From: Octopus vulgaris | Lineage: Eukaryota | Assembly (NCBI GenBank): GCA_951406725.2 | Contig: OX597820.1 | Location: 2,046,001 to 2,110,000, forward strand | Direction: 5' to 3' | Length of the DNA: 64,000 nt | In this document: positions 1,506 through 54,478 of the stretch, one piece after another | Position numbering within the stretch: the first letter of the stretch is position 1 | Layout of the letters: each line of letters begins with the position of its first letter | Position numbers and translations under genes: made by a program | The notes under the pieces: model-generated | The model's database searches: none | What the model was told of the DNA's origin: nothing | Seen by the model: the letters and a program-made list of their open reading frames with translations, nothing else

Positions 1506-1579
1506 ACAGTGACTTCGAAGTTTCGGCCCGCTGGCCATCATCGATCCGATCGATGATGGCTTAACTTCGAAGTCACTGT
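1506..1579. ncRNA. Short foldback containing a minimal hammerhead-like motif (minus strand, 1507-1544)
   Basis: Minus: TCGATGA-T-GGCC-AGCG-GGCC-GAAA-CTTCGAAG-TC-ACTG, with palindromic stem III. The right arm is an internally deleted inverted copy. The 5' strand of stem I is lost at the inversion junction. Confidence 0.55.
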
Positions 1580-1893
1580 CGTTGCTCTTCTTGATAAAAA
1601 AAAATAATACAACAAATTTTCAGTAATCCTTCAGTTGAATGCAAAATCGCATTTTATTATAACATATTATAAAAGCGGCGGGTGAGCTTCCAGAATCGTT
1701 ACCCCGTTTCATCGTTTTAGGGTCCATAAAGCAGGTAACAGTCGGGTACCAGGATCGATATAATCGAATAGCAACACTCACACAAAATTATGACTTGCCC
1801 CCCCCCCCACACATATATATATATTAAATAAATAGTTATATACATATATACATATATATATATATATATAAATTATATAAATGGAGCAGGGCA

Positions 1894-2121
1894 TACGAGG
1901 TAGGGGGTGGGGTGAAAAGGTTTCTCACTTTGAGTAAAGGAAAATACAGGAGGATCAGTAAACTAGGATTTTATTCAACACCCCCCCTCCCAGACTTACA
2001 CGCTTATTGCAGACGTCCTTCAGATTTTCTAAGCCCTTTAAAAGAACTCGGAAGATTGGGCATCCAACTAAGCCCAATTGCGATACCCTTAAAGCGGGGA
2101 ACATTTCAGCACCCACTCGTG
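1894..2121. mobile_element. Degenerate mariner-type MITE
   Basis: Imperfect terminal inverted repeats TACGAGG...GGGGTGAAAAGGTT / AACATTTCAGCACCCACTCGT resembling mariner ends. Confidence 0.4.
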
Positions 2122-2559
2122 TATGTATATATATGTATATATATATATATATATATATATATATATATATATATATATAGATACATACATACATATATAT
2201 ATATATATATGTATGTATGTATATATATATATATATATATATATATATATATGCATTGGAAACTTTATATAACAAAGAGTCCAATCAACAGGTTACTGAA
2301 GATGCTTCCGAAGGCGGCGGCGAGTTGGCAGAGTGGTTAGGGCGTCGGGCGAAATGCTTAACGCCATTTTATCCGTCTTTACGGTCTGAGTTCAAATTCC
2401 GCTGAGGTCGACTTTGCCTTTCATCCTTTGAAGGATTTGTTAAATACATCCTCACATGTTGAGTGCTACATTCTTTCTTTTTCCTACACACGCGCTTGTA
2501 AATATCAATCTATACACACACACACACACATATATATATATATATATATATATATATGC

Positions 2560-3141
2560 TTTTATTCTTTTACCTGTTTCAGTCATTTAACTGCGGCCAT
2601 GCTGGAGTACCGCCTTTTAGTCGCACAAATCGATCCCAGGACTTATTCTTTGTAAGCCTAGTACTTATTCTATCGGTACTCTTATGCCGAACCGCTAGAT
2701 TACAGGGACGTAAACACATCAACATCGGTTGTCAAGCGATGGTGTGTGAGACAAACCCAGACACACAAACATATATATATGTATATATATGTATGTATAT
2801 ATATATATATATATATATATATATATATATATATATATATATGTGTGTGTGCATATATGCATACGCATATGTACATACATCTATACGTATATGTATATAT
2901 ATATATATATTTATAAATATATATATATATGCATATGTGGGCACAGATATATATATATATATATATATATATATATATATATATGACGGGCTTCTTTCAG
3001 TTTCCATCTACCAAATCCACTCGCAAAGCTTTGGTCGTCCTGAGGCTATAGTAGAAGACACTTGCCCGAGGTGCCACGCAGTGGGACTGAACCCAGAACC
3101 ATGTGGTTGGGGAACAAACTTCTTACCACACAGCCACGCCT
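2560..3141 (-). mobile_element. tRNA-derived CORE-like SINE with internal microsatellite (family A). Other copies at about 5030-5410(-), 6820-6979(-), 12627-12790(+), 13259-13625(+), 14150-14460(-), 20500-20890(-), 21636-22012(+), 22020-22420(-), 24668-24948(+), 27075-27481(-), 30919-31070(+), 32180-32370(-), 33660-34023(-), 34815-35185(-), 48020-48300(+), 52840-53225(+)
   Basis: Recurrent head GGCTGTGTGGTAAG...GGGTTCAGTCCCA (A/B boxes), CORE-like ACCTTGGGCAAGTGTCTT, central (TA/TG)n, and tail ...GGTGCTCCAGCATGGCCGCAGTCAAATGACTGAAACAAGTAAAAG. Confidence 0.9.
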
Positions 3142-51371: not shown

Positions 51372-52157
51372 AGGGCGGCGAGCTGGCAGAAACGTTAACA
51401 CACCGGGCGAAATGCTTAGCGGTATTTCGTCTGCCGCTACGTTCTGAGTTCAAATTCCGCCGAGGTCGACTTTGCCATTCATCCTTTCGGGGTCGATTAA
51501 ATAAGTACCAGTTACTCACTGGGGTCGATATAATCAACTTAATCCCTTTGTCTGTCTTTGTTTATCCTCTCTGTGTGTAGCCCCTTGTGGGTAGTAAAGA
51601 AGTAGGTATTTCGTCTGCCGCTACGTTCTGAGTTCAAATTCCGCCGAGGTCGACTTTGCCATTCATCCTTTCGGGGTCGATTAAATAAGTACCAGTTACT
51701 CACTGGGGTCGATATAATCAACTTAATCCCTTTGTCTGTCTTTGTTTATCCTCTCTGTGTGTAGCCCCTTGTGTGTAGTAAAGAAGTAGGTATTTCGTCT
51801 GCCGCTACGTTCTGAGTTCAAATTCCGCCGAGGTCGACTTTGCCATTCATCCTTTCGGGGTCGATCAAATAAGTACCAGTTACGCACTGGGGTCGATATA
51901 ATCGACTTAATCCCTTTGTCTGTCTTTGTTTATCCTCTCTGTGTGTAGCCCCTTGTGGGTAGTAAAGAAGTAGGTATTTCGTCTGCCGCTACGTTCTGAG
52001 TTCAAATTCCGCCGAGGTCGACTTTGCCATTCATCCTTTCGGGGTCGATCAAATAAGTACCAGTTACTCACTGGGGTCGATATAATCGACTTAATCCCTT
52101 TGTCTGTCCTTGTTTTTCTCCTCTATGTTTAGCCCTCATGTGGGCAATAAAGAAATA
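51372..52157 (+). repeat. SINE-B-derived tandem array: one head followed by four 184-bp units
   Basis: Unit starts (GGTATTTCGTCTGCCG) at 51421, 51605, 51789 and 51973; near-identical copies. Confidence 0.95.
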
Positions 52158-53379
52158 GATATTTATTCTTTGGATGAAGAGTTCACCCTTACGCCGACAA
52201 TAAGAGTGATTCAGACATTCAAACTGTTGAAAGTGAAGAGGAAAGTAATGAGACGAATGAACGAATACGGTTGTTGAGCGATCGGCCAATTATTGATATT
52301 CTCACGGATTTTTTTTTTTTTTTTTTGTGAATCTGTCCACAATCGATAATCTTGAACGGTATATGCAACTATTTATCTGTTTACTAAGGAGCCCAGGTGG
52401 AAGGTAAAGTTAGACACCGGTGCCCGAGTGTGAGAGGATTAATTTTCATTTGGCAACAGTAATCTCATTATCAGCCAGTACCAGTCGCTCTGACAAGAAA
52501 CCTCAAACAACAGAAACCAATGAAATGATTGCAGTTTATTTGCTCACACAGCAATTATCATAAATGGAAAGAAACAACAATTGTCACGCTCTGGCCGAGG
52601 TCATCAGGTCCACCTTTTTTGTAGCCACCGCCAGAATCTACAACCGTACAAAGAAACAGAGAGCTTCTATGTGGTCATCCGTTCTGCGAAAATAGTAGCT
52701 GAATCGTCATCAAATTTCACCCTATTGTCTTTAAAAGAGAAGGGCACATGAGATAAGATAGTCCCCAATATGCAAAATGCCAGGATAGGCTTTTATATGT
52801 AAGATATACATGAGTCGTGGACAATTTTTTTAAAAAATAGATGTGGCTGTGTGGTAAGAAGTTTACTTCCTAACCACACGGTTCCTGGTTCAGTCCCACT
52901 GTGTGGCACCTTGCGCAACTGTCTTCTATTATAGCTTTATGAGTGGATTTGGTGAAGCCTTGTGAGTTGAATTGGTAGGCAGAAACTGAAAGAAGCCCAT
53001 CATATGTGTGTTTTTGTGTCTTTGTTTATCCCTCACCACCGCTTGACAACCACTGTTGGTGTGTTTACGTCCTCGTAACTTAGCGGCTTGGCAATACAAC
53101 CGACGATAGAATAAACACCAGGCTTGAGAAAAAAAAAAGAAATCCTGGGGTTGATTTCCTCGACTAAAAATGCTTCAAGGTGGTGCCCCAGCATGGCCGC
53201 AGCCTAATGACTGAAACCAGTAAAAACAAACAAAAAACAGAAGACCATTCCAAAATGAAGTTACTGATCCTTTAGTATACAAGAGTGGGGAAGAACTTTC
53301 GAACTAGATTAACTGAATATTTTGTTTCGTTTTGGGATTTGGTTTGCAAGATTCTTTATTTGAGTTCGTGTGTTGAAGC

Positions 53380-53668
53380 ATATTCTCTTGTGTCTGGGGA
53401 GAGTCATTTTCTTTTTGTGCCTTATAATTTAACACACTCACCGGTAAAATTCCCACTTATTTTTTATTTTTATTTTCCTAAAATTTTCGCTGCGCCTTGC
53501 AACCTTTTCAACAGTTTTGACTCTCTTTCAAGACCATTGAAAAGGTTGCAAGGCGCAATGAAAATTTTAGGAAAATAAAAATAAGAAATAAGTGGGAATT
53601 TTACCGGTGAGTGTGTTAAATTATAAGGCACAAAAAGAAAATGACTCTCCCGAGACACAAGAGAATAT
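53380..53668. mobile_element. Near-perfect palindrome (about 135-bp arms) with a U3-A8 hammerhead variant on each arm
   Basis: Minus 53478-53514: CTG-TTGAAAA-G-GTTGC-AAGGC-GCAGC-GAAA-AT-TT-TAG; plus copy 53534-53570. Confidence 0.75.
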
Positions 53669-54351
53669 TTTGTACTTAACTTTTACAACCGAAGCTACAA
53701 GTACACCGCGGAGTTTCAAATAAAAAGTGCTGAGAAAATGAACCAAAACCGTTACAACTCTCACCAAAAGTTCAACGAGAACAGGTGATTGCCGTTCGAG
53801 ATTGCCATTGGATGCATAAATTTCACAGCAGTAGCATAATATTTAATTCACGCAAGATTTTCCAGTACAAACTCGATACTTAATACATCAATTATAAATT
53901 ATTATCAACTTGTCAAAGGAATCCTACTTTCTTTTTTCTGTCGTGACAGAACTTAAAATATCGAAAATGTGTTGTGTGTGTGTGTGTGTGCATCTATGCG
54001 TGTGTGATGGTGCGAGGCCAAGTGATTGTGGTGTTCAGTTCACAGTCATAAGGCCGTGAGGTCGATTTCCAGCAGCGGATTGTGCCCTTGAGCAAGACAC
54101 TTTATTTCATTGTGCCCCAATGAATATATATATATATATATATATATATATATATATATGTGTGTGTGCACATATATATATATGTGTATATATATATGTA
54201 TGTATATATGTATATATATATATATATATATATATATATATATATATATATATATATATATATATATATATATATATATATATATATATATATATATATA
54301 TATATGTACTCGTACATACATATACACACACACACATATAATGTCTTTGTA

Positions 54352-54478
54352 AATTAAAGCTATCATTGGTTTCATGTTGAGAAGAGTAGGAGAAGATCCA
54401 AGTATCTTAACAAATTTTCAAGCCGATACTTGAATATTCTCACATTCTTTTAACATGAAACCAATGGTAGCCTTAATT
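54352..54478. mobile_element. Diverged foldback with a second, unrelated U3-A8 hammerhead-like motif (minus 54358-54424)
   Basis: GGC-TTGAAAA-TT-TGTTAAGA...TCTCAACA-T-GAAA-CCAATGA-TA-GCT; the right arm retains GAAA-CCAATGG-TA-GCC. Confidence 0.55.

What the first reader, a model, noticed from the sequence alone, without database searches (positions are those of the whole stretch)
1506..54478. Repeated 'tail-out' foldbacks built from hammerhead-bearing Penelope termini of unrelated families
Seen: seven inverted structures with unrelated sequences (1506-1579, 28986-30863, 36006-36663, 42659-44027, 49321-49639, 53380-53668, 54352-54478) contain a minimal hammerhead motif. In all seven the left arm reads leftward and the right arm rightward, so both outer ends are element 3' ends, and in the short ones the inversion point lies just 5' of the ribozyme. 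Known: PLE pseudo-LTRs carry minimal type I hammerheads with palindromic stem III thought to act as dimers, and 5'-truncated PLEs often have an inverted pseudo-LTR. Inference: these look like MITEs but are retro-insertions primed from both target strands, or a class of non-autonomous ribozyme foldback elements. Transcription from either direction would yield a hammerhead plus long dsRNA.
Basis: partly seen in the sequence, partly recalled or inferred. Interest (0 to 1): 0.75.

Follow-up and report, generated by a model that had tools for sequence, protein, structure and literature searches.

The report
Head-to-head Penelope retrotransposon insertions
These seven hairpins are pairs of shortened Penelope-type jumping-gene ends joined back to back, a layout already described for this class; nearly every pair has one long and one short end, which suggests the enzyme likely starts copying on both strands of the target DNA at once.

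Summary
All seven inverted structures are real and point outward, and each family's consensus carries a type I minimal hammerhead. Only 4 of the 7 window copies pass a strict descriptor.

The orientation bias holds elsewhere in the genome: 15 tail-out versus 0 tail-in among 54 clusters in 800 kb of blindly chosen DNA. They are not a mobile foldback unit: the young 360-bp family has 29 different junctions in 29 inversions.

Head-to-head inverted pseudo-LTRs with a one-sided tail, and opposite-strand hammerhead pairs, are published Penelope features. Added here are counts. Of 117 inversions, 107 have one tail, 10 none and 0 two. In the young family both arms share source variants (28 of 30, against 11% permuted). 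In 13 of 60 pairs neither arm contains the other. This favours coupled priming of both target strands at the two known RT start sites over pure self-priming.

'Inversion just 5' of the ribozyme' holds for two families only. Junctions show no pile-up at the cleavage site. One old family shows no arm sharing. This scan noted the same pattern before, in this and other genomes.

The parts
1493..1545 (-). R1 left arm (short end, no tail); decayed hammerhead 1544-1511, 5' strand of stem I lost at the junction
1548..1668 (+). R1 right arm with a deletion through stem II/GAAA, then decayed family tail (about 1608-1668, by eye)
28958..28985 (-). R2 28-nt tail, left side only, next to (TA)n
28986..29663 (-). 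R2 3' non-coding region and pseudo-LTR
29129..29163 (-). R2 minimal hammerhead, CCGAAGA core (29 of 29 pattern matches in the family), stem III GUAC
29664..30734 (-). R2 5'-truncated Penelope ORF: RT C-terminal part plus GIY-YIG endonuclease (PF01541, E 5e-6)
30735..30863 (+). R2 inverted 129-bp terminal copy, no ribozyme, no tail
36006..36406 (-). R3 left arm: 1.1 units of a 360-bp non-coding tandem repeat, short end at 36006, hammerhead 36216-36183
36404..36665 (+). R3 right arm: 3-nt microhomology junction, hammerhead 36409-36442, tail 36622-36665, in (TA)n
42471..42538 (-). R4 tail, left side only, separated from the arm by an expanded (TA)n
42659..43740 (-). R4 long arm, AT-rich, no long open frame; hammerhead core 42924-42918, long stem II, U16.1 changed to C
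43741..44027 (+). R4 short arm; core at 43776, same U16.1-to-C change, no tail
49318..49456 (-). R5 left arm, hammerhead 49441-49404, no tail
49458..49675 (+). R5 right arm, hammerhead 49512-49550, tail to about 49675; candidate 9-bp target duplication 49317-49325 / 49680-49688
53325..53524 (-). R6 left arm with tail (53325-53379) and U3-A8 hammerhead 53511-53481
53528..53668 (+). R6 right arm, core 53537, stem I mismatch, no tail; candidate 11-bp target duplication 53315-53325 / 53663-53673
54346..54427 (-). R7 left arm with whole but mutated U3-A8 hammerhead (core 54421-54415), no tail
54426..54541 (+). R7 right arm starting inside stem II (half motif), with tail 54485-54541

Best explanation
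Each structure is a pair of 5'-truncated Penelope-type element ends joined head to head at its own junction, likely made in one insertion in which the Penelope enzyme primes reverse transcription on both target strands. Shown: orientation, mostly unique junctions with little or no microhomology or filler, one end with and one without the tail, arms that are often non-nested, and shared source variants in the young family. Inferred: the enzyme (predicted to be a dimer in PMC11167929) nicks both strands of an AT-rich or (TA)n target. One 3' end starts at the tail-end RT site and the other at the inner site, on the same RNA or on RNAs of one source locus. The two cDNAs stop at scattered points, or run off an RNA 5' end just upstream of the hammerhead in families R1 and R6. 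They then join by microhomology, sometimes after a short snap-back. The hammerhead is a passenger of the pseudo-LTR and does not set the junction. The foldback is a product of insertion, not a unit that moves.
For: Orientation: 15 tail-out, 0 tail-in of 54 clusters in 800 kb; 16:0 of 81 clusters in flanks of 239 loci, some overlapping. Tail rule: R3 28 one-tail, 1 none, 0 two of 29 inversions; R1, R2, R5, R6, R7 60 one, 9 none, 0 two of 69; R6 3'-only query 19 of 19 one tail, read by eye. Non-nested arms: in 13 of 60 one-tail pairs the tail arm starts more than 10 nt downstream of the tail-less arm, so neither can be a copy of the other. Same source: recurrent R3 variants in both arms 28 of 30 versus 0.11 mean, 0.38 max in 5000 permutations; 6 locus-private variants in both arms at 5 loci; weaker excess in R1 (50/68, P 0.001) and R6 (24/30, P 0.01). 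Penelope identity: GIY-YIG in R2; R6 terminus follows an RT plus GIY-YIG ORF on the same strand in 2 of 2 loci fetched. Biochemistry: both strands cleaved and extended, two RT start sites bound the tail, hammerhead mutants still insert (PMC11167929).
Against: R7 arms are no more alike within than between loci (70/101 concordant, P 0.18; identity 0.869 versus 0.870) and R5 is not significant (17/22, P 0.14), so one source is not shown for all families. Shared variants could also come from snap-back copying or later arm-to-arm conversion. Short snap-back hairpins do occur at the R6 hot-spot. Tail-in adjacencies exist: 4 at 3 of 168 loci and one clean tail-to-tail pair, L213. About 12 R1 loci share nearly the same junction (by eye). 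Many copies are not inverted: 39 of 54 random clusters, and only 5 of 34 long R2 copies are inverted. An ORF link is not shown for R1, R3, R4, R7 and is weak for R5 (E 2e-4 pairwise; no Pfam hit). Family samples are the best BLAST hits, not random draws.
Confidence: 0.7

Rival explanations
1. Self-priming: the first cDNA, or an antisense template as proposed in PMC3846280, folds back and copies itself; the endonuclease then trims one arm to remove the tail.
For: Both arms share variants in R3. The R6 hot-spot starts with a small palindrome, and several loci carry 10-40-nt snap-back duplications there. PMC3846280 reports palindromes at inverted junctions.
Against: 13 of 60 one-tail pairs in non-tandem families are non-nested, including window R7. 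In R3 the tail-less arm is often the longer one (e.g. 3892 versus 369 nt in L335). A self-copy would end at the same terminus, yet none of 117 inversions has two tails.
Confidence: 0.15
2. Two independent RNA-protein particles prime the two sides of one break, each with its own RNA from the cell's pool.
For: R7 arms are no more alike than random. In about 8 of 29 R6 loci both arms run to the same 5' hot-spot. An earlier scan note (e1-9539494) saw arms from different parents.
Against: R3 has several co-existing haplotypes, yet arms match in 28 of 30 cases. Independent particles would not explain the absence of two-tail insertions.
Confidence: 0.1
3. A class of non-autonomous ribozyme foldback elements (MITE-like) that move as fixed hairpin units.
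For: R1 repeats nearly the same junction at about 12 loci (by eye). R6 often gives near-perfect 280-bp palindromes.
Against: R3 has 29 different junctions in 29 inversions. R6 palindromes have fillers of 0-61 nt that differ per locus. In the R1 recurrent junction the tail lies on either arm (7 versus 4 of 11 informative loci, by eye). Solo and tandem copies outnumber foldbacks in the random sample.
Confidence: 0.04
4. Assembly or long-read chimera artefact.
For: The window's R3 junction was not bridged by any listed contig in 4 public runs. This is inconclusive: the contigs are about 60 nt and the insertion is young.
Against: Arms differ by up to about 25% and have asymmetric tails and candidate target duplications. 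Contigs of public runs from 4 studies show joints between varied left-arm positions and the R6 hot-spot 53526-53536.
Confidence: 0.01

Closest known systems
Insertion units of endonuclease-bearing Penelope-like elements with an inverted 5'-truncated pseudo-LTR and one-sided tail (PMC8557442 Fig. 2 legend and text; PMC3846280 Pen2/Pen2a; PMC2377424 Fig. 1C legend)
   Same: Head-to-head inverted terminal copy, tail on one end, partial tandems, microsatellite targets, occasional 9-11-bp target duplication, palindrome at the 5' end of the pseudo-LTR.
   Different: Those passages describe the layout in words. Here it is counted across six families, with a zero-of-117 two-tail result, non-nested arms and arm haplotype sharing, which argue against the self-priming explanation offered in PMC3846280 as the only route.
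Minimal type I hammerheads of metazoan Penelope elements (PMC4209133)
   Same: Extra base after A9, short stem I, palindromic stem III, the U3-A8 core variant, and dual motifs about 100-700 bp apart on opposite strands.
   Different: Three families here have C at core position 4 throughout. I did not see this variant in the two of four text parts read; supplements were not read.
Animal non-LTR retrozymes (PMC7229834, passages; bioRxiv 10.64898/2026.07.22.740005, first of five parts and passages)
   Same: R3 is a non-coding 360-bp tandem unit with one type I hammerhead per unit, dispersed in young multimers.
   Different: R3 insertions carry the Penelope footprint (inversion, two fixed ends). 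A word search found no 'inverted' in PMC7229834 and only a reference title in the preprint. Circular RNA and cleavage were not tested.
LINE-1 twin priming (recalled, from no call)
   Same: Both target strands prime reverse transcription, giving a tail-out inversion with microhomology at the junction.
   Different: In LINE-1 the two parts are non-overlapping pieces of one RNA. Here both arms start at fixed terminal sites 28-60 nt apart and overlap, giving true inverted repeats.
MITEs / Foldback DNA transposons (recalled)
   Same: Short non-coding elements with long inverted repeats.
   Different: No fixed length, junction or symmetric ends; copies are 5'-truncated retro-copies.

Membership tests
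EN+ Penelope-like elements | ORF with RT and C-terminal GIY-YIG upstream of the terminus | tested here: met
   R2 in the window; R6 in L420 and L421 (GIY-YIG above cut-off in L421, RT below cut-off in L420)
EN+ Penelope-like elements | Same ORF link for R1, R3, R4, R5, R7 | tested here: inconclusive
   R5 weak RT-end match E 2e-4, no Pfam hit; none found for R1, R4, R7 within 1.5-kb flanks; R3 is a non-coding tandem unit
EN+ Penelope-like elements | Pseudo-LTR from partial tandem copies | tested here: met
   R2 locus L344 has two hammerheads 4265 bp apart around the ORF; R3 tandems. Not seen for the other five.
EN+ Penelope-like elements | Type I minimal hammerhead in the pseudo-LTR (sequence and fold) | tested here: met
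   All seven consensus sequences; descriptor 30 versus 0 in the reversed control
EN+ Penelope-like elements | 5' truncation, inverted 5' copy and optional tail | tested here: met
EN+ Penelope-like elements | RT phylogeny within the Penelope clade | not tested
   No tree built; clade names not assigned
Hammerhead ribozyme (catalysis) | Self-cleavage at the UH site | not testable with these tools
   Genomic proxy negative: 1 of 58 R3 junction ends lies at the site, about 1 expected, and 56 of 59 arm segments read through it
Non-LTR retrozyme (R3) | Non-coding tandem units of a few hundred bases, each with a type I hammerhead | tested here: met
   360-bp unit, up to about 11 units per arm, 98-100% identity
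Non-LTR retrozyme (R3) | Circular and linear monomer RNA | not testable with these tools
   No raw RNA reads laid
MITE / mobile foldback unit | Fixed internal junction, length and symmetric ends across copies | tested here: not met
   29 distinct junctions of 29 in R3; asymmetric ends in 107 of 117 inversions

The most novel reading that the evidence does not exclude
A Penelope dimer uses its two RT start sites in a coupled way, one per target strand, on a single uncleaved RNA. This one step produces both the inverted pseudo-LTR and the one-sided tail, for autonomous elements and retrozymes alike. In families R1 and R6 the RNA begins 5-13 nt before the hammerhead, so run-off copies build double-ribozyme palindromes repeatedly.
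Probability: 0.45. Interest if true: 0.6.

Novelty: new member of a known kind. Interest (0 to 1): 0.37.

Why it matters
How Penelope elements make their tandem and inverted insertions is described as undefined (PMC8557442). The counts here tie two known oddities, the inverted copy and the one-sided tail, to one testable step. They also show that a retrozyme-type repeat bears the Penelope footprint. In practice, such hairpins should be annotated as Penelope ends rather than MITEs. The layout itself is not new.

Tried and rejected
Rfam scan: no hammerhead among the 150 listed of 215 matches, mostly microsatellite-driven miRNA hits.

A canonical CUGANGA pattern found only R5 among the seven; variant cores were needed.

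Single-strand folding gave z about 0 for R2, R5, R6, R7 and -3 to -5 for R1, R3, R4, so it is not diagnostic.

Junctions set by ribozyme cleavage: rejected for R3; none of the free inner ends listed for R1, R2, R5, R6, R7 lies at the site (by eye).

A 3'-only R3 search returned mostly divergent relatives because the query held a private change and common words are skipped. Its 30 loci were left out of the R3 tallies and used only as flanks and for L213.

R4 family maps were too noisy from AT-rich repeats and were left out of the tail tally. Twelve duplicate loci were dropped.

Sequencing runs: no RNA holder listed; the window R3 junction was not bridged in listed contigs, which proves nothing.

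The protein atlas gave no answer for the R6 peptide. Pairwise comparisons of R5 and R6 peptides with the R2 ORF were weak or empty.

Paper searches for a printed twin-priming model of Penelope inversions found none in the held library. [quoted passage not shown]
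Full report
Setting. The window is G000:C7:2046001-2110000 of a 2.8-Gb genome in 227 contigs, 37% GC and rich in microsatellites. From recalled SINE sequence it looks like an octopus; no call tested this. I name the seven structures R1-R7 in window order.

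Observation. Self-BLAST confirms all seven inverted repeats. For each I searched G000 and aligned 29-30 best loci. Every consensus holds a type I minimal hammerhead: short stem I, a core, an extra base, stem II, GAAA, a short and mostly palindromic stem III, and UH. R1-R3 have C at core position 4, R4-R5 are canonical, and R6-R7 have the U3-A8 variant. A strict descriptor passes 6 motifs in 4 of the 7 window structures; R1, R4 and R7 are decayed or half motifs. All seven are tail-out.

Chance and orientation. In 80 blindly chosen 10-kb stretches the descriptor found 30 motifs against 0 in the reversed sequences. Fourteen lay in an inverted arm, at 6 loci, all tail-out. Using 18 seed families, 15 of 54 clusters were tail-out and 0 tail-in (P 6e-5). 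Flanks of 239 earlier loci, some overlapping, gave 16 and 0 of 81. Exceptions exist in the targeted sets: 4 tail-in adjacencies at 3 of 168 loci and the tail-to-tail pair L213.

Identity. R2 is a truncated Penelope ORF with GIY-YIG. One copy shows a 4265-bp unit between two hammerheads, and 5 of 34 long copies are inverted. The R6 terminus follows an RT plus GIY-YIG ORF in both loci fetched. R5 has a weak link. R1, R4 and R7 are assigned only by ribozyme, tail and geometry. R3 is a young non-coding 360-bp tandem repeat of retrozyme type.

Unit or by-product. In R3, 29 of 39 loci are inverted and all 29 junctions differ. Inner ends are spread evenly over the unit (8, 7, 9, 13, 12, 9 per 60 nt), with 0-11 nt overlap or up to 6 nt filler. 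Most sit in (TA)n. One of 58 inner ends is at the cleavage site and 56 of 59 arm segments read through it, so the template was likely uncleaved or circular RNA. R5 and R7 junctions also scatter.

Two families with a hot-spot. With a query covering only the 3' part of R6, 15 of 29 copies still begin between -13 and +4 of the core, and 19 of 29 are inverted. Contigs of public runs from four studies show joints to this hot-spot. R1 behaves alike, and about 12 loci share nearly one junction, but the tail lies on either arm (7 versus 4, by eye). I infer an RNA 5' end there; this is untested.

Mechanism. Across six families, 107 of 117 inversions have one tail, 10 none scored and 0 two. Queries often required a tail in one arm, but nothing selected against two. 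In 13 of 60 one-tail pairs of the non-tandem families neither arm contains the other, which excludes simple self-copying there. In R3 both arms share recurrent variants in 28 of 30 cases (permuted mean 0.11) and 6 private variants; 99 of 134 variant sites of all kinds are unshared, so conversion has not homogenised the arms. R1 and R6 show weaker sharing, R5 is not significant, and R7 shows none. Short snap-backs occur at the R6 hot-spot. The best reading is coupled priming of both target strands at the two RT start sites, then joining of the two cDNAs. This step is inferred.

Literature seen. PMC4209133, parts 1-2 of 4: dual motifs on opposite strands 100-700 bp apart, and U3-A8. PMC3846280, passages: head-to-head most frequent, tail on one inverted pseudo-LTR, self-priming proposed. 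PMC8557442, passages: inverted 5'-truncated copy, one-sided tail, cycle undefined. PMC11167929, parts 1-2 of 4: both strands cleaved and extended, two start sites bound the tail, predicted dimer, ribozyme dispensable in vitro. PMC2377424, PMC8969392 and PMC7229834, passages. bioRxiv 10.64898/2026.07.22.740005, part 1 of 5 and passages. No supplements were read. Seven searches showed no printed twin-priming model for Penelope; older subscription papers were not available.

Earlier scan notes. Searches show this scan reported the same layout, one-tail rule and shared-source idea on other DNA. These are unchecked notes, not support; my reading was set down before the first look-up.

Verdict. Real, abundant and already known as a structure; not a new mobile class. 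The counts give moderately useful, testable evidence on an open step of Penelope transposition. Interest 0.37.

Noticed in passing
window 6423-6443 (+), 6513-6702 (-), 13874-13974 (-), 21297-21372 (-), 22813-22864 (+): Further hammerhead-like termini that are not in foldbacks; 21297 is an R1 relative. Solo copies are about as common as foldbacks in the window.
   Followed up: partly
window 35696-35851; also 6487-6570, 7399-7568, 46079-46144: Other palindromes without a detected hammerhead; 35696 sits next to (TA)n and may be another Penelope-type foldback.
   Followed up: no
window 22196-22267: Two short repeat ends facing each other across (TA)24 in a perfect 72-bp palindrome; by recall these are SINE 3' ends, i.e. 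the opposite (tail-in) geometry.
   Followed up: no
R1, R2, R3 families (e.g. window 29163-29157, 36409-36415): Three unrelated families carry C at hammerhead core position 4 in nearly all copies (29/29, 68/68 and 6/7 pattern matches).
   Followed up: partly
window 36160-36235 (-): R3 hammerhead has a long extended stem I (z -4.9), and a second core-like CCGATGA...GAAA word lies on the opposite strand of that stem.
   Followed up: no
L335 (G000:C14:72705400-72712400) and L336: Units within one R3 arm differ in a patterned way, which fits a linear read-through of a mixed array better than one monomer circle. In L336 the short arm shares a private change with the penultimate unit of the long arm.
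   Followed up: partly
L213 (G000:C9:40860439-40863505): Near-perfect tail-to-tail pair of an R3 relative across a TA tract, the reverse of the usual geometry.
   Followed up: no
window 51421-52164: Four tandem copies of a 184-bp unit, 96% alike; SINE-like by recall.
   Followed up: no
window about 40100-41500 (+): Sequence contexts seen look like a coding retroelement stretch; not examined.
   Followed up: no
G000:C1:206.65-206.85 Mb: At least seven 86-94% identical R6 ORF matches clustered, most spaced about 15-19 kb apart; possibly a segmental array.
   Followed up: no
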